Shown piece by piece: positions 519-59,342 of a DNA stretch of 64,000 nucleotides. The translations under genes and the position numbers were made by a program. The stretch is from Octopus vulgaris (lineage: Eukaryota), in the NCBI GenBank assembly GCA_951406725.2, contig OX597826.1, positions 18,352,001 to 18,416,000 on the forward strand, read 5' to 3'. The notes beneath the pieces are model-generated. The model was not told the origin of the DNA, did not search any database, and saw nothing but the letters and a program-made list of their open reading frames with translations. Positions within the stretch are counted from its first letter, which is position 1; each line of letters begins with the position of its first letter.

Positions 519-815
519 TCACAAATCCTTTCAGGTAAATGGCCTTGCTCAATCTGTAGAAAAGGTGTAAGTAGAAACTCCATAAGATGTACCCAGTGTA
601 AGCCATAGACACATAAGAGGTGCAGCAATATCAGAGGAAGGTTAATGGGGAAAATAGCCTTTGTGTGTGGAAGATGCACAGGTACAATAAACACAGAAAA
701 TGTACAGAAAATAGACTCCATCAACTGCCACGGGTGTGAGCTAGGGGTAGTAGATAGCTTCTGTTATCTAGGTGACCAAGTTAGAAGCAGGGGTGGATGG
801 TTTGAGAGTATGGCT
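516..815 (+). mobile_element. RTE-clade LINE fragment with PHD finger
   Basis: SGKWPCSICRKGVSRNSIRCTQCKP*THKRCSNIRGRLMGKIAFVCGRC...VVDSFCYLGDQ. Confidence 0.8.
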
Positions 816-829
816 ATTCTCACAGCCAT

Positions 830-2060
830 ACTCAGTTCAACATTGTTAACTTTTATCCATCAATTTCAAAAGAGTTATTGATGAAGGCACTTTCCTTTGC
901 TAAGGGCTTCACAGATATTAGTGATAGTGGTGTTAGAGTTATCATGCATGCCAAGAAGATGATGCTGTTCAGCAAAGATTCAACATTGATGTAGCTATGG
1001 GAGCATATGACATAGCTGGTGTCTGTGATCTTACTGGGCTGTACATGCTGGACATCTTAAGGAAGAGGTTTCCTTCAATCCCCTTCAGTCTCTACAGAGA
1101 TCTCCCTAGCCATCTCTAGAGGAGCCAACAGACACATACCAGATAGACTTAGAAAGAATCTAATTAGTGCCCTAGGCTCAATGGGACTCAAGATCACCAT
1201 TGAGACTAATCTCACCACAGTAGATTTCTTAGATGATAGTTTTGACCTGGGCTCTGGTACATACAGGCCCTATCACAAGCCAAACGAGAGACTGCATTAT
1301 ATTAGCACAGTCTTCTGCCACCCCCTATAGTTTTCAAGAACCTAGTGAAGGTGTAAGCAAGAGGATCTCGAATCTGTTCTGTAGCCAAGATATCTTCAAC
1401 ACCGCTACCCCCTGCAACAATGAGGTACTGGCATCGAGTGGGTTTAAGGACTGCATCTCCTACATGCCAGGCTCTAACACCCAGAAAAATAAGAGCTGCA
1501 GAAATATTGTTTGGTTTGCTCCCCACTTCTCCCAGACTTGTGTGGGGAGGATTTTCCTTTGATTACTAGATAAACATTTCACACACACACAGATACATGC
1601 AATTATTTAACAGGCACAACCCAAGAGTCTCCTGTAACTGTGCACCTAACATAAAATGCATTTTAACAAGTGCCCACAATACAAAGGAGGAGGCAGGTTG
1701 TTCTTACAGAGTATATAGTAACTGTCCAGTAGGATGTCGATGCGAAGCTGAAGGAGTCATCTATGAAGCTACGGTGACACCTAGATCTGTTATCTGTATT
1801 ACCAGCAATGTACCATCCAACAGCAATATTAGCAGCTTAACCAGATCTCACACCAGTACAATCGCCACAGCCAGAGATGATGACCAGTCTGGGACCAGCA
1901 TCATAGAGGACGTAACCAATGACCCCAGTACCACTGCCACAGATGATGAACAAACCAATATTACAGACACAGACAGAGTGACTAGCCCCATACCATATGT
2001 TACCACCAGTCCAATCCCCATACCTAAGACGATGACCAATCCAGGACCAGTGACACAGTG
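830..2060 (+). mobile_element. Degenerate Naiad-type Penelope-like element (RT core, linker, start of GIY-YIG)
   Basis: Broken frames give QFNIVNFYPSISKELL..., IDVAMGAYDIAGVCDLTGLYML, SLYRD, VDFLDDSFDLGSGTYRPYHKPN, RNIVWFAPHFS and CSYRVYSNCPVGCRC...GVIYEATV; colinear with the 53.8-54.7 kb element. Confidence 0.85.
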
Positions 2061-4795: not shown

Positions 4796-5798
4796 TTAAC
4801 TGTACATCGGTAGCCCTGTATATACCAATGCATTACAATGTCTACCTTCTGTATCTGAATAAGGTCACTACTTTTGCCAGTTTATGGAAACATCTAGACA
4901 TTTAAGTGCCTGCTTTTAACTTTTCTATTATTCACCACTGAGAGATGTGATGGTATGTCAATGTTTGCCACTGTTTTTAAAATATTGGAGAGTTGAGAAA
5001 TAACTCTCTTCTAGGATTAAATAACAACTAAAACAGGTTTATATATTTTTTCCTTTAATTTAAAGTATCATTTGAATTCAGTACAACTTATTAACACTGT
5101 TCCTTGGAAATTCCAGCAGTAAAATATTCTTTCTTGTGGTTTCTATCTCCAATGAGTTATATAAAGTTTTTATCGAAAAGAAACAGGCCAAAGTGAGACG
5201 AAGCTCGATATCAATAACAAAACGAGATATCAACCCTTTTTCAACCTATCATTGTACAGATTTAGAAAGCTGTGACTTAATAGAAAGGATACAGACTGAA
5301 ATTGTTACCAGCTGAAATACAAAGAACTTTATAGTTCAAAGATTTGACTAACATTTGTGAAATACAAATATATTTGAAGTTTGCTGAAAAAGTATAAAAC
5401 ATATTTTGCCAAGTTTTAGCACCAGTTCATAAAACTTGGCATCTCTCTGAGATTTTAGTGTTTTGTTAAAAAGCAATTAAGGAGTTTAGCGGAGAGGGCC
5501 AACATGTGATGTGGTACTGAAGGTGCCATAAAAACATGCTTTAACATCCTAGTCTCTTTACTGAACAAAGACACCAAAGAGATAATAGCTGGAACATTGC
5601 AGAGGTTTTGAATTTAAAACAACATCAAAGAAAGATAACTTTGGATTGCTACCAATAGTGACTATGATTCATTCAATGTGGAAATATTTTGAAATGTAAT
5701 AAATAAAGAATGACTATGGAGAACAACCACCCTATTAAGATAAAGCTGGTTTTGTTCAGTTTTTAATCAATAAATGTACTTGGTGAAATTAGTTTTAC

Positions 5799-5924
5799 CT
5801 AAACAAGAAAATCCGTCAGCAGCAATTGTATATGCGTCTTTTGGGCAAGTGCATTTGAAAGATCCAAACAGGTTTACACATCCCATACTGCAGCCACCAT
5901 TATTCGATTCGCACTCATTGATAT
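5799..5924 (-). CDS. Calcium-binding EGF exon (4th of 4)
   Basis: Minus strand: tttcttttgaag|AT ATC AAT GAG TGC ... TGT TTA G|gtaaaa; 126 nt, phase 1-1. Encodes (D)INECESNNGGCSMGCVNLFGSFKCTCPKDAYTIAADGFSCL. Confidence 0.92.
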
Positions 5925-6737
5925 CTTCAAAAGAAAATAAAAATAATAATAACAATAATGATAATAGCAATAATAATAACAACAGCAAAATAAAAACAAG
6001 ATATAAAAATGTATAAGCAACAGACCAGAACACATTTCAGCAGTGAATGCAAGACATTTCAATAGAAAAATGGCAAAACTACAATTCTAAGGGTCTGGCA
6101 ATGTGACTAGATATGTTCCAGAAAACTGTTCAAGTATTTAGCATATTGATTTTATCATTACAACATTGAATGCACAAGGGAAGGTGAGAGAAAGAGAGAG
6201 AGGGAAAGGGAGAGGGAGAGAAAGAGAAGAGAGAGAAAGAAAGAAGTAAGAGGAAGGTAGGAAGGAAAAGAGAACTATATCAAAGAAATTCCTGGCAAAG
6301 ATCATTGGTTGAACTTTGTCATTTAGGGAAGATACGATTACCAATATTCAAGGAATCTGCTATTAGCCACTGATGCCAGCAGGTTTTTATGTACTGTTAA
6401 TAAGTGACAGTATAAAAATGATTATATTAACTATATAAAATCATGATTTATGTGTTATATACACCGTTAAAATGTACTTTACAAAATGGCTGTTCTCTAT
6501 GAATAAAAATATCTTCTTGTAACACAGAAGCAAAATATGTTATCTGTTACCAGATTTATAGGCTCTTCTTCCTTTCTTCCAGCCATACAATCTGCTGTTC
6601 ATATATTCTGCCTCTCCTGTGAATTCAACCTCCTAAACCTAAGACTCCAAGTGGAGGGTAGACGTATATATAAGTGGAGGCTAGATGAGTATAGCAACTT
6701 AGTTGGCTTTCGTTACTCAATCTCAACATTGCTTTTC

Positions 6738-8943: not shown

Positions 8944-9904
8944 TGAGGGGAAGTCAAAAATTATCCACACTTTCACCATAACATATCTTTATTACTATCA
9001 CACTGCCTTCTGTGCATGTGTACTTATAGTTCGTACTATTGTGGTCACATGATCAACGTTTGAGCCTAATCATGCCATTTTCTTTCTGGCTTTACAGTGA
9101 AATCGTGGTCATCCACTAAGAATGTGCATCAATGAAGAACAAAGAGAAGGGATCCAATTTCTCTGGTTGGGAGATTGTGTCACGTACTGAAATTCATCAG
9201 AGGCTTTGAGCACAATTGGTTAATAGTTTCAACAGTCTGGGCTTTGGCGTTTGGTGCAAATTGCTGGCTTCAGTTTCTTGACCAGCAAAGCACTGTATCT
9301 TGCACTATTGATTGTATACCCCTTTTCCAGGTAATCTTCCAGTATAGGCCCTTTTGAGTGCCAAAAATGGGTTAGCATCACCTTTCCTGTGGAAGACTGA
9401 GTCTTGAATTTCTTTGTAGCTGACAAGCCAGGATGTTTCCACACCACACTCTGTCTTTGAGATTCTGCCTCATAATGATGGACCCACGTTGCATCTCCTG
9501 TGACTATTCTGCTCAAAAATTCCTCACCCTCATTGTTGTAGTGATTGAATAAATGTTGGAAAATCTCAAGATGTTTGCACTTGTGCTCCGCAGTAAGCTC
9601 TCTTGGCACCCATCTTGCATAGACTTTATGGAAGCTGAGCTCATCGTGGATGATTTTCAGCCTCTGACACATTTTCCAGCCAGAGAAATCAGATCACGGC
9701 TCTTTGTTCTCCTTTGATGCACATTGCTAGTGGAGCAGCCACGATTACACAGTAAAGCCAGAAAGAAAATTGGTGCAATCAGACTCAAACTTCGATCACA
9801 TGGCCACAATAGTACCAACTATGAGTATGCATGCACAGAAGGCAGTGTGATAATAATAAAGATATGTTATGGCAAAAGTGCAGATAATTTTTGACTTCCC
9901 CTTG
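8944..9904 (-). mobile_element. Rearranged mariner element with long (~230 bp) inverted arms
   Basis: ORF 9229-9672(-) has WVPRELT, IVTGDATWVHH and GKVMLT mariner motifs. Termini read (c)GAGGGGAAGTCAAAAATTATC; arms are 8944-~9172 and ~9672-9904. Confidence 0.88.
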
Positions 9905-14390: not shown

Positions 14391-14508
14391 AGACTAAACT
14401 ATATCCTAGGCACTGGATTGTTATCTATAATTAATTTTTGAAAGCATAATCTACCCAAATGTTACCTTACTTGCCAATATATGTTCTGCTATTACAGCAT
14501 TTACTTAC

Positions 14509-14634
14509 CAATGCACTGGGACTTGTCTTCACTAAGAACAAAACTCTTTTTACATTTGCAGTAGTAGGATCCAACAGTATTAAAACATTTCCCACCACTG
14601 CAGGCTTTCCTATAACGTTCACATTCATTTAGAT
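14509..14634 (-). CDS. Calcium-binding EGF exon (3rd of 4)
   Basis: Minus strand: tttttgtag|AT CTA AAT GAA TGT ... TGC ATT G|gtaagt; 126 nt, phase 1-1. Encodes (D)LNECERYRKACSGGKCFNTVGSYYCKCKKSFVLSEDKSQCI. Confidence 0.93.
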
Positions 14635-15559
14635 CTACAAAAACAAATAAAAAAGAAATAATCAATATGCATGTGTGTATACCTACCTTCCTACATACAC
14701 GCAGGCATGCATATACATATATAACAGCAGTGTATATATTTTGAGATTTATTATATACAAGTAAACTTCTGACACAAGTGAATGTGATACTATAGTTGGT
14801 ATTTAAAGGAGACAATTTTTTCAAGTTTTCTACAATGAACTAAAAAAGAGAAAAATATGAATAACTTTGTGTACAATATTTTCTTTATATGTTAGATAGT
14901 TTAAATTCCTACTTTTATGAAAAATGCACCAAACAAATAAAAATTTAATTTGAAAGGATCTTGAATTGAAATAGATACCATTTTTCCTGACCTTTTACAC
15001 CAAGGTATTATTGTTATGGTTATTTCTTACAATTTTGCTGTAGTGACATGATCAGAGTAACAAACAGCTTCAGATTTACAAAGAAGGAAAGAATTGTTTT
15101 ATAACAACCACACCAAAATGAAGCTTAAATGGAAGGAAGTAAAATGAATCCATTTAATGATATCTGATCATGTAAGGCAGTGAGCTGCTGGAATCATTAG
15201 CTTGTTGGCCAAAATGTTCAGAGGCATTTCATCCGTTTTTACATTCTGAGTTCAAATTCCACTGAGGTCTTTCATCCTTTCAGAGTTAATCAAATAAGTA
15301 CCAATTGAGCACTGGGGTTGATTTAATTGACTAAACCTCTCCCCCAAAATTGCTGGCCTTGTGTCAAAATTTGAAACCATTATGTCACTATTATACTTTA
15401 AGTATGGCATGACAATAACAATATCTTATTTTTCCTCTGCATTAAATCTAAAGTCTAGTTCCCATATATTAAAAAATATTGTCAATATTCATTTAAATCA
15501 GATTTTAAGTTAGAAACTTCTGTGTCATGGATATGTGATAAAATTAAAATTTTCTGATG

Positions 15560-17920: not shown

Positions 17921-19180
17921 CACAGCCATGACACAAGTAAATAGACATCCATAAAACATTGTTTTATGTTTACTTTATCTTGTAAAGATTTATATATTTT
18001 TTTATTAATTGACATTTTTATGTTTCAGGTTCAATATGTGACTGTTTAATCATATCACACACAAAAGAAACCTTGGGACTGTCTGAATTTCAAAGAGGCT
18101 ATATTGTGGGTCACTTTGAAGGTGGACATAGTCAGCATAAGATTGCAGAAAATCTTGGGATCCTGCTTTCTACAGTTAATAGAGTGATTGTGTAATTCAC
18201 CAGAGAGGGGAAGGAGTCTACATCACCTCACCCAGATCAATTGGGGCCTTCTGACAGGACCCTTCTCTTTGTTAAGAGAAGTGTGGAGAATAATCCTCAT
18301 TGCAAGGCCTCTGACATAGCAGAGCAAGTTGATGTCAATCCGAGAACAGCTGTCAGGTATCTCCACAAACTTAGTTACTATGGCAGAGCAGCAAGAAGTA
18401 AGCCACTTCTTTGACTAGCCATTATCAAGCAGAGAAAAGATTGGGTCAGTGAGATGGTGGCAGGACCACTAGCATATTGTGACACTCTGTCATATTCTCC
18501 AATGAGTCCAGATTTGCTGTATTTCCTGACTGTGATCAAGTGTGGGTCTGAAGTCTCTGTGATCAAGGATTTGATTTGAAAAGATTGCAGCCAACAATGA
18601 AACATGGCAGCTATTCTGTGATGGTCTGCAGAGCAATTTGGAGCAATGGTCACTCAGAGCTGGTGGAGTGTGAGGGAAACATAAAATCAGATAAATATGT
18701 GTCCATATTGCAGAAAGGACTCCTTCCAATCTTCTCCAGTGGTAAAATTATTAAAGAAGGCTCTTTATTTATGGAAGATGGGGCTCCTTGCCACATAGCT
18801 AAAATAACTCAAGATTGGTTGGATGAGAATGGCATTAAAAAGCTTCCATGGCCAAATCAGTCACCAGATATGAACCCTATTGAACACCTCTGGAACATAA
18901 TGGACAAGACACTTCATAAAAATAACAAGAAAGCATCTTCAAAGCCAGATCTTTTGAGATTACTGCATGAAACTTGGCCAGAAATTCCTCAAGAGAATAT
19001 TCGTCATCCGATCAGTAACATGCCTAATAGGGTCCTTGCATTGAAAAATGCAAAGGGCATGTCCACTAAATATTAAATATTCACATTATAATGATTAATA
19101 AATAATTTGAATGTATAATTTCAGATTTAAATAAATTTTAACGATTATAATAGTGTCAATTTACTTCTGCCATGTCTGTG
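17921..19180 (+). mobile_element. Full-length but inactivated Tc1-like DD34E transposon
   Basis: ~28-bp TIRs (CACAGCCATGACACAAGTAAATAGACA / rc CACAGACATGGCAGAAGTAAATTGACA) with TA flanks. ORF 18576-19076 has MEDGAPCH...[15 protein letters not shown] with D-x34-E; the HTH region upstream has stops and frameshifts. Confidence 0.92.
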
Positions 19181-27310: not shown

Positions 27311-28213
27311 TGCACTGAATTAGATGCAAAAAATGAAAGCAAATGCAGAGGCAGTTCTGCTTACATAACCATCATGGTTGGAGAGTAGAAGAAAGAAGTA
27401 TTCCTCAAAGTGGCTAAATATTCTTTGGGAAAAAATTCACATTCTCACATTGAATTCACTTATACAGATCTTTTCAAATGGTTTGTCATTCACAGTCATT
27501 GATATATATGATGCAAATATTAAAATATTGCACTCAGATATATTGTAATAATGTCATCAGATATTAGGGTATATCAAATAATTGGCTTTACTTGGATTCA
27601 TATTAAAAGATAATTCAAATTGTTACAGAAACACCACTGCAATATCTTTAGTCTCAGAGAAGATAGGATTTCCGAAGTAGGCACAAAACCAGGTATTTAT
27701 AGGATTGGTGAAATTATGTGATTTTTATATTCAGAAATGGTCTGTTAAAAGATGTGTGGGAAGAGAAATTGCAATCAAAACTGTTTTGCATACTTGATTC
27801 GCTGTGAAGATGCAATAATTCCAGTTAATTGATGTAACTCTGTTTGTATGCGATTATATTGAACAATTTTTTTTAACATCCTGAACCACAACAAAACACT
27901 GCAGGAGGGAGACTTTTATAAAGTTATTCAACACACTAGAAATAACAAGTAAATCTCCCTCAAATCACAACTTACCATTTAATAAAAAAATAAATAAATG
28001 AGGTATTGAATAATGAATGCATTCCTAAATAAACTACACCCAAATATGGAATCGTTATGGCTTGAAAATATTTAATCATAGATTTGCTTAATCAGAGTTG
28101 ACATAAGATGAAGCAATAACAACCATAATTTCTTCAGATAAAGAAAGGCTTGCAAGAAAGAAGACTGAGAAGCAGAGTTGATAGAAGAACAAAAAAAGAA
28201 TCGAGTTCCTTAC

Positions 28214-28342
28214 CATTACAAGAATGTGGATTCCTGCTATCTACATATCCAGCTACTGAACAGTTACATCTGTAAGATCCTGGAATGTTGATACAGCGCC
28301 CAGGACATGGTGTATTCTTTAAAGTTACACATTCATCAATGT
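28214..28342 (-). CDS. Calcium-binding EGF exon (1st of 4 in transcription order) of a multi-exon EGF-repeat extracellular protein
   Basis: Minus strand: tttcacag|AC ATT GAT GAA TGT ... TCT TGT AAT G|gtaag; 129 nt, phase 1-1. Encodes (D)IDECVTLKNTPCPGRCINIPGSYRCNCSVAGYVDSRNPHSCN: six Cys, DxDEC start and CxNxxGSYxC hydroxylation consensus. Confidence 0.93.
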
Positions 28343-31080
28343 CTGTGAAAAAAATAAAATGACAATGAAGAATTATTTTGGAGACAAACCAAGTATCTTT
28401 CATAAATCAAACAATAAAGCATGCCTCATGCAAATAATCCCCATTATTATCAACATCATTTGCAGAAGCAATAAGCATAGCAACAGTAGTAGCCTCAGTT
28501 CAGTCTCTTTTACATGCTGATTCAAAATGGATAGATTTACCAGAGAGATATCCTTCAGCTATTCCTTCCTGTCTTGGTTTCATATCTCTGCTGCTGAAAT
28601 AGTTTTTATTGAACAAATTATCACCATTATTACATGGTGCAGTGGAATCGATTCAATGATACAATGAAGCATCTAGTCTGGTGCTTCATATTTCATCAGT
28701 CAAGTCCACTGGGAGTTAAAATTGTCTTGTATTTCTTCAGGATCAGTGAGTTGAGTAGCAAGGAGGAACTGAAGACAATTCAGTTAATTAAAATATTTTT
28801 CTTCCCAAAAACCATCTTATTTCAAAGCATAAAAACAAATCTTTTGTTATTAGTAGTTTTGTTATTTTCTTGTTTTATTAAGAAATGTCTCGCAGCATTT
28901 CTTCTCTTTATTTCACATTCTGAATTTCAATACTGCAGAGGTGAATTTCCCTCTCATCTTCTCAGGATCAATAAAATAAAGAACGAATGAAGTTGATGGC
29001 ATTAACTAACCTCCTTCTGCAAATTTCAGGACTGATGCCTATGTTAGAAATAATTATTATTACAAGGGTATTAGCTGGCAGAATTGTTTCAGTGTGAAGA
29101 AAAATGCCTTGCAGTTCAGGCTGTAGTTGACACAGCTTTTATCCTTCTAGAGTCAATAAAATAGAGTACCAGTCAAATACTGGGGCTGATGGGTTTGACT
29201 ACCCCCTCCCCCCACTTAAAACTGCTAGCCTAAATTAAAAACTATTATCACTGATGCTGTTGCTGTTAACATTATTATTTCTGGTAGAGGTACCAGGGTG
29301 CATAGCTGGTTCAGGACAAACTCTACAGAAAAAGCAGCCCAGTCAGCCAGGTCTGATTGAAATATGAACAAGGTGCCAGGACATTGCACATGCGTTGTTC
29401 AGTCACCAAATATTTCTAACTTGTGAAGTTATGTTAAACAGCTTTTTTGTTCCATGTAGGACAGATCTGGATATCAGCCAAGTCTACCATGAAGATAGTC
29501 TCACTGTTTTTGCAATGAGGAAGAGTAGGTAGTTTTCCTTTGTCTGGTGACCATGACAGGAAAAGTTAAGATGACCATTTTCTTCAGCCAAGCCCTTATT
29601 ACTGGGAGAGAAAGATAAAAGATGAAAGGGAAGAGTTGTTTTCCTTTGAATTTGCAGAAAAATGGATGTTTCAGAGTATATGAGATTTCTTTATTGATTC
29701 TAGTTTCAGAGTAGCCCAGGATTTATTTAAGAGACATCGATTGCTTAAAGATGGTTATCCTATTTTGGGGACCAGAATCATTACAGAGTTGGAAAAAAAT
29801 GCCATGCAATGCTTCTGCCTCTTCACATTCTTAGTTCAATATTTTCTTTCGTTTTGTCTGTCTTTAAATTCTGAGTTCAAATTCTTCAGGGGTTCACTTT
29901 GCCTTTCATTCTTTTGGAGTTGATAAAATAAGTACCAGTTGAGTACTAGGGTCAATGTAATTCACTTACTTCATTCCTGAAATTGTTGGTCTTGTACCAA
30001 AGTTTGAAACCCTTATTAAAAAGCTATTTAAGCTTTGACAGTCATAAGTGTCCTGCTCAAAAACACAACACAAAGCTACAGGATATGCACAACCCAGTGT
30101 ACAATATTTTATGTGCTTAAAAACTGAGTCCTTCAATAATATTGATTGCAAATTTTGGCATGAAGCCAGCAACTTCAGGAAGTGGATAAGCTGATTACAT
30201 CATCCCCAATGTTCAACTGGTACTTATCCAAAAAGATGAAAGGCAAAGTTGACCTTGATAGAATTGGAACCCAAAACATAAAGACAGATGAAATGCCGCT
30301 AAGCATCTTGCTTGGAATGCTAATGATTTTTGCCAGCTCACCACCTCTCAATAATATTGACAATTTATTCCATTTGGGTGGGAAAAGAAACAACCAACAT
30401 AATACAGGTATTTTTATAAAACCTGGTGCAAATAATGTTACATCCAACAATTTGAAATGAGTAAACACTGAATTAGGTACCATTGATTTATTTCATTTTT
30501 CTATACAAGAAACTATTCAGCTATATACCTTTTTACCTCTTTTACTATTTTCCTTGTTTTAGTCATTAGATTGTGGTCATGCTGGAGTACCACTTTAAGG
30601 AATCTTAGTAGAATAAATTGACCCTGGTACTTATTCTTTTTTTATTTTTCCTTAAGCGTGTTGCTTATTCTACTAATCCCTTTTGCCAAACCACTAAGTC
30701 ACAGAAGTGTAAACATCAGTTGTCAAGCAGTGGTGGTGAACAGCCATAGACACACACACACACACACACACATGCAACAGGCTTCTTTAAGTTTTCATCA
30801 ACCAAATCCACTTCCAAGGCTTTGGTCAGCCTGAGGCTATAATAGAAAACACTTAACCAAGGTGCTATGCTGTGGGACTGAATCTGGATCCTTGTGGTTG
30901 TGAAGCAAACATCATACCACACAGCTACATCTGCATATGAGGAAAAAAAACAATAATTTGTGATCTCCAGGGTTTTTTGAAAGACCCCAGTAGCAAAAGA
31001 AAGATTTGCCACAAAGAATTAAAACCTGCTCAGAAATCTGTTTGCTAACAACCAGCCACATCCCCTGCTCCAGTCAAAAC

Positions 31081-48029: not shown

Positions 48030-48030
<1 letters not shown>

Positions 48031-48583
48031 CATATCTGATATCCTCACTGTAAAATAAGAATGATCTCGTTTGAGATTACAGCCATCTTTGGCTGGTTTG
48101 TCCCTGTTGTGTCCACTGATCTGATTGGTTGGCATGTGGCGCGGTTTGTCTCTCTACTTATTTCGCGCCACTGTGTAAAGCTAGCCAATCATGGCCTTCG
48201 GGTAAGGCCTGCTTCTTTGAGCCATTTTTTCCCTATAAAAAGGCCAACTTTCACTATTCTTCATCTGTTGCTTGAATTGGAACATGGCTGAGCAGCTCTG
48301 TGGTCAGTGACTAGACCTTAAAAGGTCTGGAGTCAAAAGATGAAGAATAGTGAAAGTTGGCCCTTTTATAGGGAAAAAATGGCTCAAAGAAGCAGGCCTT
48401 ATCCGAAGGCTGTGATTGGCTAGCTTTACACAGTGGCATGAAATAAAGTAGAGAGACAAACTGCGCCACATGCTAACCAATCAGATCAGTGGACACAACA
48501 GGGACAAACCAGCCAAAGATGGCTGTAATCTCAAACGAGATCATTCTTATTTTGTCTCTCAAACAGTGAGGATATTAGATATG

Positions 48584-48584
<1 letters not shown>
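48030..48584. mobile_element. Long palindromic (foldback) MITE-like element in (TA)n
   Basis: Arms 48030-48266 and 48338-48584 are near-perfect reverse complements with a ~70-bp spacer; (TA)n on both sides. Confidence 0.9.
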
Positions 48585-48638
<54 letters not shown>

Positions 48639-48643
48639 AATGT

Positions 48644-49389
48644 ATGTGTGTTTATTCAGTGTTTACAATTAACACGGAAAAAAATAATAAATGGAGTTAA
48701 ACGCAGGTGTTATTTAAATACAATATCTAATCATTACTCTACAGTTAGACATATCAATACTGGGCTTAGTAAATTAATCTGGATCGTAATAAACAATTTG
48801 ATTTGGAATGGAATATACTCTCTGTATCTTTTCCATATGATAAAGGTAAATCTTTTTGTCCACTTTGTAACACTGAGATGTAACACTGTTCTCAGAGAAT
48901 TTCCTTGTAAACATATTTATAGAAAGTGTTTATCATTGCAAACATTGGCAGAAACATACCTTTAGTTTCTATAAGTGATTTCTACCATTCTATAAAATTT
49001 GACCGTTGATTGTCTTCTTACATTTCACTTCCATTAAATATATCTCCTTCCATGCCTTTAAGCTTTATTCTAAATCACCTATCGCTCTATATCTCTCCAC
49101 TATTTGTTTTCTGCCAATTTCTTTCTCCTCCTTCCTTTTCTATAAACTACCTTGACGTTGTATCTACTAACAGTTTTTTTTAAAAAAAGCTTGTTAGTGT
49201 TCCCTTCAGCATATATGCAGTCATCACATTCTGTTAAAATGTCTCATTGATGTGTTTGATTTCTTTCTTTCCCTGATGTGAAGATTGCATTGTTTTACAC
49301 CATTTTATTCCTTCTGGAATAATACCAATGATTTCTTCGAAACATATGTCAGAAGTAAAAAGAATTAAATAACACCTGCATTTAACTCC

Positions 49390-49394
<5 letters not shown>
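48644..49394 (+). mobile_element. Short Naiad-type PLE relic (GIY-YIG C-terminus plus 3' UTR) with 30-bp inverted ends between TA tracts
   Basis: 48720-48978 reads TISNHYSTVRHINTGLSKLIW / DRNKQFDLEWNILSVSFPYDKGKSFCPLCNTE / YHCKHWQKH, matching the endonuclease C-terminus of the 54-kb element. Inverted repeat 48688-48717 vs 49365-49394 (29/30). Confidence 0.75.
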
Positions 49395-49423
<29 letters not shown>

Positions 49424-49429
<6 letters not shown>

Positions 49430-49614
49430 GATATCCTCACTGTTTGAGAGACAAAATAAGAATGATCTCTTTTGAGATTACAGCCATCTTTGGCTGGTTT
49501 GTCCCTGTTCTGTCCACTGATCTGATTGGTTGGCATGTGGCGTGGTTTGTCTCTCTACTTATTTCGCGCCAGTGTGTAAAGCTAGCCAATCACGGCCTTC
49601 AGATAAGGCCTGCT

Positions 49615-49620
<6 letters not shown>
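49424..49620. mobile_element. Single-arm copy of the 48030-48584 foldback element
   Basis: Near-identical to one arm; (TA)n on both sides. Confidence 0.88.
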
Positions 49621-52960: not shown

Positions 52961-53129
52961 TAGCTCAATAGTTTAAACCCACCAAGTGACCTTAAATAAA
53001 CTACTCTACTCTGTGCTTATGTTAATTACTCCTTCTTGGAAATGACATGCTGTACTGAAGCTCCAATACAAACAAGAGTGGATAGAGCTGGAAAAGAAAT
53101 AAAATCAGAGAGGATCAGAGAGGGAAAAC

Positions 53130-53644
53130 AACACTGACAAGTTAGCTGACCAGATGTTAGGGGTGATGTGGTCACAGAAATTGTCTGACAGCCATGACTG
53201 GGTTCTCCTGTTAGTGTGGCACAGTACAAAGTCCTGTTCCCAGACATAGGGTCTTCCAACAGCCACCCTCTTGATCCAGGGCAGCACTAATTCCTCCAGG
53301 CATTTGATGTAGGCCTCTGTGTTGAGTCCGAGGCTGTGTGGGAAGATGAATGGAGGCATATCATCACCATCACAAGTTATCACTCCAAACACCCTGATGT
53401 TGACTGGATGTTTGATTTTTATCACTCTCTCTACATGTTCCTATGGGTGCATGTTTGTATTGGAGCTTCAGTACAGCATGTCATTTCCAAGTTTCTGGCA
53501 GAGTGAATTGCATCATGGTGCTATTTTTCTCATAGACAGTGCCCAACTGACCCTACTATACTGTATAGTCAACAAAATAAAAAACAAACAATGCATATGC
53601 ACAGAATTAAAAATATAAAATAGCGACAATTTACCCATCACACC

Positions 53645-53647: not shown

Positions 53648-53685
<38 letters not shown>

Positions 53686-53796
53686 GGTCCCGGGTTGAGT
53701 CGGGGTTAACCACAGTAAATAAGGTACTCAATACATAGCAGAGTAAATTAATTTATTATATAGAAGGAGCTTCTACAGGACTAGAACTTAAAAAGA

Positions 53797-54752
53797 ACCC
53801 TCGACTTAAAAACCTCACTTTATTACCCGTACCACAAACCTAATGAATCCCTTAGATATATAGACATTAATTCCAACCACCCCAAAATATATTAGACAAC
53901 CTAGTAAAAAGTGTCTCAATTAGAATATCTAGCCTGTCCGCTACTGAAGATATCTTTAATGCCGCAGCCCCCTATTACAACGAAGCCCTGGCCCGCAGTG
54001 GCTTTAAAGATAAGATCACCTATACTAGTATAGCCCCACGCCAACCCAGGAAAAATAGGCGAAGACACATTAGCTGGTACAACCCCCCCTTCAACCGTGA
54101 GGTCGCTACACCTGTAGCTAAAATCTTCTTCACTCTCCTACAGAAACACTTCCCCACCCAACATAAGTACTATACTATCCTAAATAAGAACACCATTAGA
54201 CTCTCCTACTCTACCACGCCCAATCTAGCCAGGAACCTAGCCAACAACAACGTGAAAAAACTTAATATATCTACTCTTTCCGAGGCCCATCCAACATCCG
54301 ATAGCAATTGCAACTGCCCTGATAAAACCACCTGCCCCCTCAACAACAACTGCCTACAGAGGGACCTCGTCTATACATGCAAGGTACGATCAGGCCCCGA
54401 TGATAAAAGAAAATCGTACATCGGAATGACGTCAAACAGCTTTAAGACCCGCTGGTACGCCCACACACACTCGTTCCGGCGACCTGATAAATCCAACCAA
54501 ACTACCCTCGCCGCCCACATCTGGTACCTTAAAAGGAACTCCATCCCCTTCAAGACCAAGTGGAGACTACTACAGAAGGCGCGTTCGTACACAGGAGGCC
54601 ATACCTGCTGTGACCTTTGCATTTCCGAGAGCCTAGAGATCTTGTTCGCCAAAGGCCATCTCCTCAACAAGATCTCAGAACACTCCCCAAATTGCATGCA
54701 TAAAATTTATGCAAACTACAAGAACTATAGACCCACCCGGCAACCCGATTGA
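53797..54752 (+). pseudogene. PLE ORF remnant: RT thumb, basic linker, CxCx5C zinc knuckle and GIY-YIG endonuclease
   Basis: TLDLKTSLYYPYHKPNESLRYIDINSNHP, one frameshift at ~53885, then an open frame 53886-54752: ...RKNRRRHISWYNPPF...CNCPDKTTCPLNNNC...LVYTCKV...SYIGMTSNSFKTRWYAH...CDLCISE...LLNK...CMH. The W(F/Y)NPP and CxCx5C motifs fit the Naiad clade as I recall it. Confidence 0.88.
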
Positions 54753-54984
54753 CGACACCCCACCCACAAAAACCTCCCAACCCCACCGTTCCCCCAGCAC
54801 CCCCGATTAACTTTCCTCCTAAGACTATTCACAGATTGTATATGTACACTTGTATATATGTATTGTATATATGTATAGAAATGAATGGGTGTTAGTAGGA
54901 ATATACGCATGTATGTGAGTGCGTGTATATGTATGTGTATGTGTATGTACATGTGTATGTGTATATGTGTGGGTTTTTTTTATA

Positions 54985-55043
<59 letters not shown>

Positions 55044-55120
55044 GTATGTGTATGTATGTGTATGTATGTATATGTATGTGTATATATATATGTGTATATA
55101 TGTGTGTATGTATGTGTATA

Positions 55121-55177
<57 letters not shown>

Positions 55178-55512
55178 ATGCTCGTGTGTTCATGTATATG
55201 TAAGTATGTAGAGTTATGTGTATGTGCATGTATGTATGTATATATACATATGTGTAGATAGGTATATACGTGTATGCTTATATGTATGTTTCCGTCTGTA
55301 TAAAGGGTAACTGCATGTGTATATATATCTATTATTTATTATTCATTATTTATTACATGAGTATGCGTTTGTATGCATGTATGTATTTATGTATATAAGG
55401 AGGCGCGTGAGTGTGTATATGTGTATGCATTTGTATAAACATATGTATACATTTATGCATGTATGTGCTTGTGTGTATATGTATGTATATATATATATAT
55501 GTATGTATACAC

Positions 55513-55546
<34 letters not shown>

Positions 55547-55677
55547 GTGTATATGTATGTGTATGTGTATATATATATATATATGTGTAAAAAAATGTGT
55601 GTGTAAATGTATATATATATGTGTGTGTAGGTGTGTGTATATATGTATATATGTATATGTATATAGATATATATATA

Positions 55678-55714
<37 letters not shown>

Positions 55715-56055
55715 GTGTACGCTTGTGTGTTTATGCATATGTAGGTATGTAGAGTTATGTGTGTATGTATGTATATATACATATGTGTAAATAGGTATAT
55801 ATGGGTATGTTTATATGTATGTATCCATCTGTATAATGGGTAACTGCACGTATATATATATATTATTATTATTATTATTATTATTTGAGTATGCATGTAT
55901 GTATATATGTGTATGCCTGTATGCATGTATGTATTTATGAACATAAGGAGGCGCGTGTGTGTGTGGATGTGTATGCATATGTATAGACATATGTATACAT
56001 TTATGCATGTATGTACTTATGTGTATATATAGATGTGCGTGTGTGTGTATGTGTA

Positions 56056-56108
<53 letters not shown>

Positions 56109-56977
56109 ATGTGTATATATGTATGAATGTATATGTGTATGTATATGTATATATATGTATATATATATGTATATGTGTATGTATATGTATGTATGTGTAT
56201 GTATGTGTATATGTATATGTGTATATATATTAATTAGTGTATATGTATGGACTAGTCTTCTGTGGGTGTATTGAGGTATGTATGTGTATGCGTGTATGTA
56301 TGAGTATGTGTGTACGTGTGAGTGTGTGGGCGTGAGTGAGTGCTTGCGTCCGTATCAGTGAGTAGATAGATAAACGGAATCTTTAGATCATCCCTTGAGA
56401 CCGGCTGACCGGTCAAGATAAAAATAAAGATATAAACAAAAGTAGTAGTACTAATAAAATTAAAATAAGAGAATAAAAATGTGTGTGTATGTGTGTGCAT
56501 CTATATGCATGTGTATATATATGTGTGTATGTATATATATGTGCGAGTGTGTATACATATATGTATATATATGTATGTATATGTGTATTTGTGTGTACGT
56601 ACATGGGTACGTGTATATATATGTATATATATGTATATGTATATGTATGTGTATGTGTATGTATGCATATATATATGTATGTATATGTGGGTATGTATGT
56701 ATATGTATAGATATATGTGAATATGTGGGTGTAGATATGTGTATATATATATATATGTAGATGTACAAGTGAGAGTCTCCTTACTTACCTAAAACTCTAT
56801 TTTTCTATTTATTTTTTTATTCTTTTATTTATTCTTTTATCTACTTTACCACCGATTCCTTTGACCACTCCCCTAATAATGACAGTTTTGCGCCATGCCT
56901 ACCCCCAAAAAAGTCCCCCACCACCACCCATTTAAACCTGCCTAAATGTATAAATGCCAAAACAACTCTTGTCTACT

Positions 56978-57028
56978 AGCTTCCTGATGATTTCTTTTGA
57001 ATGAAACAGTTCTAGTCCTGTAGAAGCT
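56978..57028 (+). ncRNA. Type I hammerhead ribozyme in the PLE pLTR
   Basis: AGCTTC-CTGATGA-tTTCttttGAAt-GAAA-CAGttctagtcCTG-TA-GAAGCT. Stem I AGCTTC/GAAGCT, core CUGAUGA and GAAA, short stem II, stem III ACAG/CTGT, GUA triplet; predicted cut after 57022. Confidence 0.85.
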
Positions 57029-57214
57029 CCTTCTATATAATAAATATATATATATATATATATATTTTATAGAAGGAGCTTCTACAGGACTAGAACTGTT
57101 TCATTTGAATGAAATATATATATGTAGAAGCTCCTTCTATAAAATAAATTAATTTACTCTGCTATGTATTGAGTACCTTATTTACTGTGGTTAACCCCGA
57201 CTCAACCCGGGACC

Positions 57215-57257
<43 letters not shown>

Positions 57258-57670
57258 TTCTTTTCTATCCCACTAAAGTGTACTAGGAGGAAAGATTCGA
57301 ACAAGAGTGGATAGAGCTGGAAAAGAAATAAAATCAGAGAAGATCAGAGAGTGAAAGACATAGTTGTGCTAGATGAGCTGGAGTGAAAAATTTTCAGAGG
57401 CGACTGAAAGAATAGGCAGAAGATGAGGAGGGATAAGATAGAAAAATATGTAACCATAAAGTGAAGACAGAGAAAGAAGGACTAGAAAATGACATATTGG
57501 GGGAGAAAGTAAGTAAACAAAGGGGAAATTAGGGAGGGGAAGGGAATATAGAGAGAGACAGAAACTGGCAGAACTTCAAAATACCCCACCAAAAAGTTTG
57601 ATGTCATACATTCATGTGATGTCAAACTTATTTTAATTTCCTCTTTTAGCTTCTCTTTAATCTTTTTGGT

Positions 57671-58021: not shown

Positions 58022-59223
58022 TATAAATGTACAAAGAGAGAGAAAGAGAGAGAGAGAGTCTCATGAACACATCAATATATGTATATATATATACACACAC
58101 ATATATATTTATACACATTCACACACACACACACACACATACATATACCTACATATACTTGCGTATGTATATGCATGCATATATAAATGTATGTATTTAT
58201 GTATGTGTGCGTATATATTTTTACACACGCACAAACACACACACACACACACATACATGCATATGGAGATAAGTTAGGACAATTGTGCTGATGACACCTA
58301 TTTAGACAGAAACGTGCATTTATGCGTGTTTCCTTTACCTATAGACAACAGGCCTGTCCTTTACTTTAGTAGCATGTCAACTCTGTAGAAGTCTTGAATC
58401 ATGAGATTATTTCTTCTTTTGTCATTAAGCTGGGCTCAGTTGTCATTTGGTAATTGTGACACAATCTTTAGAAGTAGAGAATTCTAGATCAAGAATTTAC
58501 ACTGTATGGTATTTGATATATCTGAATTTGCCTCTGTTGTTCAGATACACGTTACTAGCCTCTAAATGCTATTTCTCTTTGTTCATTTTCATATAAGTGA
58601 ATAATTTAGCCGGACAGGAAATATATATGTCTTGTCCAGTTAAATTATTCATTTACATTTACTGTTTACATAATTTTTATCATGTAGTTCAGTGGGGAAT
58701 TAGTTAGCAACACCATTCACATATGAGCCAAAGTAATAGCTGTCAGTAGTAAACTCCACAGATGTTTTCCTTATTCTATGGTGCAAGTCATTCATACAAC
58801 TAACTTTTTATATACAACCTGTTATTCTGGACTGACTTAAATAAACTACTCTGCTCTACGTTTCTATTAGGTATTTCTTCTCTGGGTCATTGTTATTTTA
58901 GATGGTGTGAGCTTGCCAGTAATTTAAGGAAATAATAATTGGAAAATGAAACTTCAAAAATAAAGAGGTTTTTATTGTGTTAGCCTCAATAAGATATTGG
59001 TTTCAAGTTTTGGCACAAGGCCAGCAATTTCAGGAGGGGATGCAAATCAATTGCATCACCCTCAAGCGTTTCACTGGTATTTATTTTATCAACCCCTAAA
59101 GGATGATGGGCAAAGTCAACCTCAGCAAAATTTGAACTTAGAACATAAAGACAGATGAAATGCTGCTGAGCATTTTGCCCCACACACTAATGGTTCTGCC
59201 AACTTGCCACCTTAAATCAGAAT

Positions 59224-59342
59224 GGCTACAGCACCAAGGTTTCCCAAATGGTTACCCGTCTAAGTACGAAGTAGTTTTGATATTGCTTAACTTCAGTGAT
59301 CAGATGAGAACTGATGCATTCAGCATGATACGGCAGAAAAGC
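59224..59342 (-). pseudogene. Full-length degenerate 5S rRNA pseudogene
   Basis: Reverse complement GCTTTTCTGCCGTATCATGCTGAATGCATCAGTTCTCATCTGATCACTGAAGTTAAGCAA...GTACTTAGACGGGTAACCATTTGGGAAACCTTGGTGCTGTAGCC; 119 nt, colinear with eukaryotic 5S including box A (GAAGTTAAGC) and box C-like sequence. Confidence 0.85.

What the first reader, a model, noticed from the sequence alone, without database searches (positions are those of the whole stretch)
53682..57218. Young Naiad-type retroelement with DNA-transposon-like 96-bp inverted termini
Seen: termini differ at 1 of 96 bases and both abut (TA)n. The left copy runs 11 nt further, into hammerhead stem III, then joins mid-RT sequence; 53886-54752 is still stop-free. 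Established: inverted partial pLTRs at 5'-truncated ends are a PLE hallmark. Inference: a recent insertion of a possibly active, TA-targeting family that TIR-based annotators would mislabel as a MITE.
Basis: partly seen in the sequence, partly recalled or inferred. Interest (0 to 1): 0.7.

Follow-up and report, generated by a model that had tools for sequence, protein, structure and literature searches.

The report
Hydra-clade retroelement with hairpin-marked ends
This is a broken, front-truncated Penelope-like retrotransposon of the Hydra clade (not a Naiad) sitting in a TA microsatellite; its DNA-transposon-like inverted ends are likely the outer ends of two neighbouring insertions, and a small RNA hairpin shared by distant relatives likely marks where copying starts.

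Summary
The 96-bp inverted ends (95/96 identical, both against (TA)n), the hammerhead and the open frame are real. The label is wrong. The order RT thumb, CxCX5C linker, C-terminal GIY-YIG, with no CCHH and a canonical hammerhead, defines the Hydra clade; Naiads have an N-terminal endonuclease and no hammerhead. This copy is dead: RT motifs 1-6 are missing and the frame shifts near 53884-53892. The right end is composite. The single mismatch splits four pLTR copies 2:2, so the 'TIRs' probably come from two templates, most likely adjacent insertions, and do not date the copy.

New here: the window's tail and 6 of 11 related loci carry a bulged hairpin with compensatory changes. It occurs as a tandem pair, 62-68 nt apart, before the ATG in 4 of 4 intact 5' ends. 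Six of 8 measurable 3' ends lie 4-6 nt upstream of a hairpin. This suggests two hairpin-set RT start sites that explain the PLE 'tail' and inverted arms (inferred, testable). An unusually long 2.2-kb microsatellite spacer precedes the ribozyme.

The parts
53648..53681 (.). left (TA)n target tract
53682..53788 (-). unit A, inverted arm: pLTR positions -15 to +92 relative to the hammerhead cleavage site (T variant at +16); carries the 69-nt tail and hairpin 1
53724..53744 (-). bulged hairpin 1 in the left arm (4-bp lower stem, 3-bp upper stem, UU bulge)
53789..53796 (+). junction filler; a 9-nt word spans the junction (53786-53794) and recurs at 53804-53812, as a templated insertion would leave
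   Evidence: sequence; interpretation inferred
53797..53883 (+). RT motif 7 to the SNHP thumb motif, in a different frame from the long ORF
   Evidence: (55% to P0013 aa 395-423)
53871..54752 (+). open 293-aa frame: RT thumb, CxCX5C linker (C147/C149/C155), C-terminal GIY-YIG endonuclease (Y168, Y183/G185, R194, H198, E253, N266), CxxC and CxH
54753..56977 (+). 2225-nt spacer/3' UTR, mostly TA/TG microsatellite mosaic, with an old ~310-bp duplication (55170-55480 vs 55711-56028, 83%) and 7 (TA)>=8 tracts
56978..57028 (+). type I hammerhead motif: 6-bp stem I, 3-bp stem II, 4-bp stem III, predicted cleavage after 57022
   Evidence: same core layout as the Hydra rows of File S2 of PMC8557442 (by eye)
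57029..57045 (+). end of unit A: short (tail-less) 3' end at +23, 6 nt before hairpin 1 would start; T variant
57046..57062 (.). (TA)n between unit A and unit B+C
57063..57105 (-). piece B: inverted ribozyme fragment, -23 to +20, short end, A variant at +16
57106..57122 (+). 9-nt sense fold-back (-25 to -17) plus (TA)4 at the B/C junction
   Evidence: sequence
57123..57218 (+). piece C: the right '96-bp terminus', -4 to +92, long (tail-bearing) end, A variant; hairpin 1 at 57156-57176
57219..57246 (.). right (TA)n target tract

Best explanation
This is a 5'-truncated, frameshifted copy of a Hydra-clade Penelope-like retrotransposon in a (TA)n tract, next to what is likely a second, tiny insertion of the same family, and the ends of both were likely set by the element's reverse transcriptase starting a few bases upstream of one of two conserved RNA hairpins. 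Shown: domain order and motifs, GIY-YIG fold of the model, hammerhead motif, four pLTR copies with only two kinds of 3' end (+20/+23 and +92), the 2:2 SNP split, and the hairpin in the tail. Inferred steps: (1) The RT-EN protein binds its RNA at two tandem bulged hairpins that lie between the hammerhead and the ATG. (2) The endonuclease nicks both strands of a (TA)n tract. (3) One nick primes cDNA 4-6 nt upstream of hairpin 1 (short end) and the other 4-6 nt upstream of hairpin 2 (long end, with a 60-70 nt 'tail'), helped by UA-rich bases there. (4) The template is uncleaved or circularised RNA, since all four copies span the cleavage site intact. (5) The two cDNAs are joined head to head, giving one inverted arm and a tail at one end only. 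Unit A (53682-57045, T variant) has its tail on the left; unit B+C (57063-57218, A variant) has it on the right. The two tail-bearing outer ends mimic 96-bp TIRs.
For: Clade: RT before linker/EN in 26 of 29 homologs >=650 aa; DK[TS] in 25, DK[GA] in 0; no CxxC inside the GIY-YIG core in any of the 108 scored sequences, query included; I-TevI Z 9.1, rmsd 2.4 over 89 residues; T4 EndoII Z 7.2; UvrC Z 6.1. Two templates: T variant in the left arm and 57008-57045 (38/38 identical), A variant in B and C; B matches the A variant to +20 but the T variant only to +15. Stacking in one TA tract also occurs in L007 (3' end, TA, then an inverted arm matching, by eye, the first L006 hammerhead family) and in this window at 48030-49619; L010 holds a separate B+C-like mini-insert, inverted +5..+55 joined to direct +65..+115 between TA tracts. 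Hairpin: noted, before the loci were fetched. Strict descriptor: 11 hits in 59.7 kb of loci vs 0.8 expected, max 3 in 40 shuffles; 8 of the 11 lie after a hammerhead or just before an ATG. Lower stem: 43 of 44 cells paired, 3 cells with both sides changed, 1 of 500 shuffles as high. In-register upper-stem pairs: 32 vs 9.6 shuffled, 0 of 20,000. Tandem pair 62, 65, 65, 68 nt apart in L002, L003, L005, L007. Ends: gaps of 6, 6, 6, 6, 4 and 4 nt to a hairpin in 6 of 8 measured ends. Two adjacent internal RT start sites that delimit the tail were shown in vitro for a Poseidon element (PMC11167929).
Against: No biochemical test, and only one locus of this family is in hand. Two of 8 ends do not fit: window piece B has a 9-nt gap and the L005 3' end stops at +7, 33 nt short. 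The 6 fitting ends come from only 4 independent lineages, because L004 and L010 are related families from one bin and L010 counts twice. The positions before the hairpins are AT-rich; restricted to AT/TA-ending positions, chance per end is 0-19% across the references, not 3%. A folding-energy test of the hairpin interiors against shuffles was not significant (Fisher p 0.45). The window's hairpin is weak (-1.7 kcal/mol) and ranks 4th-5th of 65 candidates under a model trained on the loci alone. Hairpin 2 cannot be seen in the window, and no such hairpin was evident by eye in Hydra-1_Obim. In the Poseidon study initiation was at a site not homologous to the cut DNA. The 2:2 split rests on one SNP, and B's three A's could be a target imperfection.
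Confidence: 0.6

Rival explanations
1. Same Hydra element, but the ends are chosen only by pairing of the nicked (TA)n with UA-rich RNA; the hairpins do another job, such as cap-independent translation of the ribozyme-cut RNA or endonuclease/RNP assembly.
For: The hairpin pair sits 13-33 nt before the ORF ATG in L002, L003, L005 and L007. AT/TA dinucleotides crowd the positions before the hairpins. A self-cleaved RNA has no cap (established knowledge).
Against: Each tail has 14-29 AT/TA-ending positions, yet 6 of 8 ends fall at a gap of 4 or 6 nt; the L010 short end is not AT/TA-ending but still sits 6 nt before the hairpin, twice.
Confidence: 0.25
2. The whole 53682-57218 block is one complex event (several primings from two RNA molecules, or template switches at one double-strand break), not two insertions at different times.
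For: Same family, same polarity, 20 nt apart, no other copy in the window; filler and fold-back at both inner junctions show switch-prone joining; PLE protein is predicted to be a dimer (PMC11167929).
Against: B+C is bounded by its own TA tracts, has its own short and long end, and matches a free-standing mini-insert in L010.
Confidence: 0.3
3. The right-end pieces B and C are an assembly or read fold-back artefact.
For: 57001-57104 forms a very stable hairpin (-80.7 kcal/mol for 56990-57120) in TA-rich DNA; the frameshift lies in a homopolymer run typical of long-read errors (inference).
Against: B and C share a variant absent from unit A, and C holds 69 nt not present next to it; natural loci show the same layout (L010).
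Confidence: 0.06
4. One reading: a Naiad element.
For: (TA)n targeting and inverted partial pLTRs are shared with Naiads; Naiads are listed for Octopus.
Against: Endonuclease C-terminal, canonical hammerhead present, no CCHH, CxCX5C linker.
Confidence: 0.01
5. A TIR DNA transposon or MITE that captured a PLE fragment.
For: 96-bp near-perfect inverted ends flanked by TA.
Against: The arms are pieces of the PLE's own ribozyme region, of unequal length (107 vs 96 nt), repeated internally; no DDE remnant inside; no free copy in the window.
Confidence: 0.02

Closest known systems
Hydra clade of C-terminal EN+ PLEs (PMC8557442), closest listed member by hand count Hydra-1_Obim
   Same: Domain order, CxCX5C linker, no CCHH, CxxC/CxH at the C terminus, canonical hammerhead near the 3' end, (TA)n targets, 5'-truncated inverted copy at the 5' end (noted there for Penelope-13_HM). 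Hand count over a 47-aa thumb block: 29 identical to Hydra-1_Obim, 21 to Hydra-1_Ajap.
   Different: A separate family: its hammerhead differs from every File S2 row (by eye), and it is only about 46-50% identical in the two best tblastx segments to the window's own decayed Hydra-1_Obim-like copy. ORF-to-ribozyme distance is 2225 nt against 86-218 nt in 7 of 7 measurable loci. The tandem hairpins and two end classes are not mentioned in the text of that paper.
Poseidon element PAc of Anolis (PMC11167929)
   Same: Internal RT initiation at two sites, with the tail being the sequence between them; unprocessed RNA as template; AT-rich targets; both strands nicked.
   Different: PAc starts in an AC-rich stem-loop 111-118 nt inside the ORF with a 30-40 nt tail; here the ends lie in the 5' UTR, the tail is 62-69 nt and each start site precedes its own bulged hairpin.
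Pen1_Av of Adineta vaga (PMC3846280)
   Same: 3' pLTR separated from the ORF by a long spacer (0.9-1.5 kb), read there as captured host DNA.
   Different: Different clade; here the spacer is 2.2 kb of microsatellite mosaic, and with one copy capture versus inheritance cannot be told.
Naiad clade (PMC8557442)
   Same: PLE, (TA)n bias, inverted partial copies.
   Different: N-terminal endonuclease, CCHH, no canonical hammerhead: none fits.

Membership tests
Hydra clade PLE | GIY-YIG endonuclease C-terminal to RT | tested here: met
   RT motif 7 and thumb precede the EN; model matches I-TevI at Z 9.1, rmsd 2.4, 89 aligned
Hydra clade PLE | CxCX5C linker instead of CX2-5CxxC | tested here: met
   C147, C149, C155, invariant
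Hydra clade PLE | CCHH absent (no cysteine pair inside the GIY-YIG core) | tested here: met
   one cysteine only between VY and YIG; 108 of 108 scored sequences without CxxC there
Hydra clade PLE | CxxC and CxH flanking the conserved E and N | tested here: met
   C247/C250, E253, N266, C275/H277
Hydra clade PLE | RWK and DKT motifs in the N-terminal RT region | not testable with these tools
   region deleted in this copy; among 29 homologs >=650 aa, RW[KR] in 18 and DK[TS] in 25
Hydra clade PLE | canonical hammerhead near the 3' end | tested here: met
   descriptor hit 56978-57028; fold within 0.3 kcal/mol of the MFE; cleavage not tested
Hydra clade PLE | insertion in (TA)n | tested here: met
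Hydra clade PLE | generally short (<3 kb); descriptive, not diagnostic | tested here: inconclusive
   would be about 4.6 kb if the 2.2-kb spacer belongs to the family; one copy cannot tell
Hydra clade PLE | RT phylogeny with the published reference set | not tested
   references were compared by eye only; the tree holds only unnamed homologs (sister P0155, support 0.97)
Naiad | N-terminal GIY-YIG endonuclease | tested here: not met
   EN follows the RT thumb
Naiad | no canonical hammerhead | tested here: not met
Naiad | CX2-5CxxC linker and CCHH | tested here: not met
Penelope/Poseidon, Neptune, Nematis | CCHH with two cysteines between GIY and YIG | tested here: not met
   contrast the rows of Fig. 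S7
MITE / TIR DNA transposon | TIRs independent of a retroelement, short non-coding interior or DDE transposase | tested here: not met
   arms are pLTR pieces; 3.5 kb; RT-EN remnant inside; no free copy in the window; rest of the genome not available

The most novel reading that the evidence does not exclude
Hydra-clade PLEs carry an undescribed cis-acting RNA signal: two tandem UU-bulged hairpins (RCWC ... UU GWGY RC), 62-68 nt apart, between the hammerhead and the start codon. A dimeric RT-endonuclease binds one hairpin per subunit and primes from both strands of a cut (TA)n tract at a fixed 4-6 nt upstream of each. That one rule would explain the PLE tail, why it is on one end only, the head-to-head inverted arms and the TIR mimicry seen here. 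In addition this family's 2.2-kb spacer would seed seven new TA landing pads with each insertion.
Probability: 0.4. Interest if true: 0.75.

Novelty: new member of a known kind. Interest (0 to 1): 0.5.

Why it matters
The element itself is an ordinary kind of thing: one more family of a clade described in 2021, with the inverted ends that PLEs are known for. What would matter is the hairpin pair. How PLE reverse transcriptases, the sister group of telomerase, recognise their RNA and why they leave tails and inverted arms is stated as open in PMC8557442 and PMC11167929. A short, covarying, position-fixed RNA signal gives mutants and a numeric prediction that the existing in vitro TPRT assay can test. 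It also gives a marker for Hydra termini and non-autonomous derivatives. A practical lesson: identity between PLE inverted arms should not be used to date an insertion, and such arms can pass for TIRs.

Tried and rejected
Pfam: no RT or GIY-YIG match for the 293-aa frame, only a sub-threshold VtrA_C hit, rejected. PDB sequence profile: 0 matches. Foldseek: best E 0.11 to T4 EndoII, not significant alone. Rfam: no hammerhead or hairpin family at gathering score in the window or in 6 loci; the miRNA-precursor hits at 56996-57109 only reflect the inverted repeat and are below threshold. Decay of the ORF: 10 of 59 conserved columns deviate against a median of 3 in 134 homologs (9 of 134 as many), but 6 of the 10 residues are shared with the nearest kin P0155 or P0046, so this is mostly lineage divergence and says little about age. 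Selenocysteine read-through: no in-frame TGA in the retained frame, dropped. Microhomology priming attributed to PMC11167929 from memory: wrong, the paper reports initiation without homology. A covariance model of the hairpin was not built because MAFFT misaligned the 5' strands. Energy test of the hairpin interiors: not significant. The arm has no nucleotide match in the 11 loci beyond 13 nt. Names and sources of the homologous proteins could not be looked up.
Full report
Observation. The window is repeat-rich animal DNA. The left arm continues 11 nt to 53788. A type I hammerhead descriptor finds one site in 64 kb, core at 56984 and cleavage after 57022; 9 of 100 shuffled windows gave any hit. 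Its fold is within 0.3 kcal/mol of the MFE, and an 8-bp hairpin just 3' of the cleavage site competes with stem I when 13 more bases are present. The frame 53871-54752 is open. The RT motif-7 piece before it, 53797-53883, lies in another frame, so the retained coding sequence is frameshifted, and all of RT up to motif 6, including the catalytic aspartates, is missing. This copy is dead.

Clade. The 293 aa found 7 longer relatives among 1170 candidates, 5 among 506, and 8047 representatives at E<=0.001, best 43% identical. In 26 of 29 homologs of 650 aa or more the RT precedes the linker and endonuclease; 25 have DK[TS], none DK[GA], 18 RW[KR]; none of 108 scored GIY-YIG cores has a cysteine pair. 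The AlphaFold model (pLDDT 80.7) matches the three GIY-YIG nucleases I-TevI, T4 EndoII and UvrC as its top hits. PMC8557442 defines Hydra by exactly these traits and Naiad by an N-terminal endonuclease without hammerhead. The element is therefore a Hydra-clade PLE. It is not Hydra-1_Obim, though a decayed copy that resembles that family by eye lies at 806-1800, which suggests an octopus-like host (inference). Formal phylogeny with published references was not run.

Anatomy of the ends. Counting from the cleavage site, there are four pLTR copies: left arm -15..+92 (inverted), body end ..+23, piece B -23..+20 (inverted) and piece C -4..+92. There are thus two kinds of 3' end, each seen twice. 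The SNP at +16 is T in the first two and A in the last two. A mutation after insertion would give 3:1, so two templates are likely. Unit A and unit B+C each have an inverted and a direct part joined head to head, one long end and one short end, and TA on both sides. The 'TIRs' are the two long ends. All four copies span the cleavage site, so the template was uncleaved or re-ligated RNA; PMC11167929 found unprocessed RNA to be the main substrate and PMC4209133 proposed circles.

The hairpin. Reading File S7 of PMC8557442 by eye, I saw the same bulged hairpin in the 3' tails of 3 of 6 consensus sequences and in the window's tail, and noted it before fetching loci. A fourth, Hydra-1_Ajap, has two at its 5' end about 61 nt apart; Hydra-1_Amil is too short to tell and Hydra-1_Obim shows none clearly. 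One scan of genome contigs gave 11 Hydra-type loci in MAG bins, probably animal-host contamination (inference). Eight of 11 have a hammerhead (7, L007). The hairpin occurs after a hammerhead or before the ATG in 6 of 11 (L002, L003, L004, L005, L007, L010); the others are cut by contig ends or end short of it. The strict descriptor gave 11 hits against 0.8 expected; a sequence-only version gave 24 against 7.8. On 11 aligned hairpins (window included; L007 hairpin 1 and the duplicate L003 copy left out) 43 of 44 lower-stem cells pair and 3 show double changes, one being the window's own A-U for G-C. On 14 position-defined sites, in-register upper pairs were 32 against 9.6 (0 of 20,000 shuffles). 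All 4 loci with an intact 5' end have two hairpins, 62-68 nt apart, before the ATG. Against: the energy test was not significant (p 0.45), and the window's copy is weak and ranks 4th-5th of 65 under a model trained without it.

Ends versus hairpins. Eight ends could be measured against a longer copy of the same family. Short ends: gap to hairpin 1 of 6 nt (window body), 9 (window B), 6 (L004 inverted arm), 6 and 6 (two L010 arms). Long ends: 4 nt before hairpin 2 (L003, L007). Miss: L005, 33 nt. Gaps are maximal matches and include any overlap with the TA target. That is 4 of 5 independent lineages. Such positions are about 3% of a tail, and 0-19% of its AT/TA-ending positions. L004 and L010 repeat the window's layout of one short and one long end, and L010 holds a free-standing mini-insert built like B+C. 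The L007 element begins at the base of hairpin 1. The window's long end lies 62 nt after the start of hairpin 1, which predicts hairpin 2 near +97 in the master element.

Mechanism. Shown: clade, ends, SNP pattern, motif conservation. Established for a Poseidon element: nicking of both strands at AT-rich DNA and two internal RT starts that delimit the tail. Inferred: that the hairpins position the two starts, that both target strands prime, and that A and B+C are separate events. My confidence is about 0.97 for the clade, 0.6 for two insertions and 0.5 for hairpin-set priming. The main rival is that UA-rich pairing alone picks the ends while the hairpins serve translation.

Spacer. The ORF and ribozyme are 2225 nt apart, against 86-218 nt in 7 of 7 measurable loci. 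The spacer is 70% TA/AT/TG/GT steps, holds 7 of the window's 23 long TA runs, and contains an 83%-identical duplication, so it is much older than the near-identical ends. Since the ORF has no nearer ribozyme and the left arm ties it to this one, the spacer was most likely in the template. PMC3846280 reports 0.9-1.5 kb captured spacers in Pen1_Av. Inheritance or capture cannot be told from one copy.

Age. The perfect TA tracts and near-identical pLTR copies fit a recent insertion, but no date follows from them. Family activity is untested.

Literature seen. PMC8557442: abstract, sections 3, 6, 11, 12, 20, first part of 13, term search, supplement parts 2, 52, 53, 58, 59 and two supplement term searches; figures not seen. 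PMC11167929: first two of four parts of the text and a supplement term search without hits; its Figs S1-S2 were not seen and may show related structure. PMC3846280: passages and section 6. PMC4209133: first two of four parts. 10.64898/2026.07.22.740005: first of five parts and passages; supplements closed. PMC7229834 and PMC13282606: passages. I found no description of the hairpin pair in searches or term searches. Subscription papers and Repbase reports were not searchable, so absence from print is not established. The Tc1/mariner label for 53108-53440, the twin-priming and templated-insertion terms, and the uncapped state of self-cleaved RNA are recalled, not from a call.

Verdict. Real feature; a new family of the known Hydra clade, mislabelled as Naiad; TIR likeness is a by-product. 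The interest lies in the conserved tandem hairpin and its fixed distance to the two end classes, which makes an open question on PLE priming testable. Interest 0.5.

Noticed in passing
window 806-1800 (+): Decayed second Hydra-clade copy in several frames, RT motif 3 to linker; resembles Hydra-1_Obim by eye; a different family from the finding.
   Followed up: partly
window 48030-49619: Three inserts stacked between (TA)n tracts: a ~555-bp fold-back element with long inverted arms (48030-48584), a decayed piece with a weak Hydra endonuclease match (48773-48880, E 4e-4) and ~27-nt inverted ends, and a second copy of the fold-back arm (49425-49619).
   Followed up: partly
window 53035-53491: Perfect 40-bp inverted repeat (53035-53074 / 53452-53491) around a remnant that looks Tc1/mariner-like by recalled motifs (53108-53440, - strand; no Pfam hit); 53071-53127 is repeated at 57300-57356 (96%), on the other side of the PLE.
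   Followed up: no
window 5770-6036, 14504-14839, 28137-28406 (-): Frames with calcium-binding EGF domains, likely exons of a host gene on the minus strand; whether the PLE lies in its intron was not determined.
   Followed up: no
window 9232-9693 (-) and 18552-19073 (+): Mariner-type Transposase_1 and DDE_3 remnants.
   Followed up: no
window 59223-59341 (-): 5S rRNA-like sequence, 57 bits, with many broken pairs: pseudogene or 5S-derived SINE head.
   Followed up: no
window 57019-57037: An 8-bp hairpin right at the cleavage site sequesters the 3' strand of hammerhead stem I and is favoured by about 1.8 kcal/mol; a possible off-switch.
   Followed up: partly
L001-L011: Hydra-type PLEs with hammerheads and TA flanks sit in GTDB bacterial MAG contigs, one (L005) in a 492-kb contig; probably animal-host contamination, not verified.
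   Followed up: no
L010 64-86: A hairpin-bearing 60-nt piece between TA-rich tracts without a nearby ORF or hammerhead; possibly a tail-only insert.
   Followed up: no
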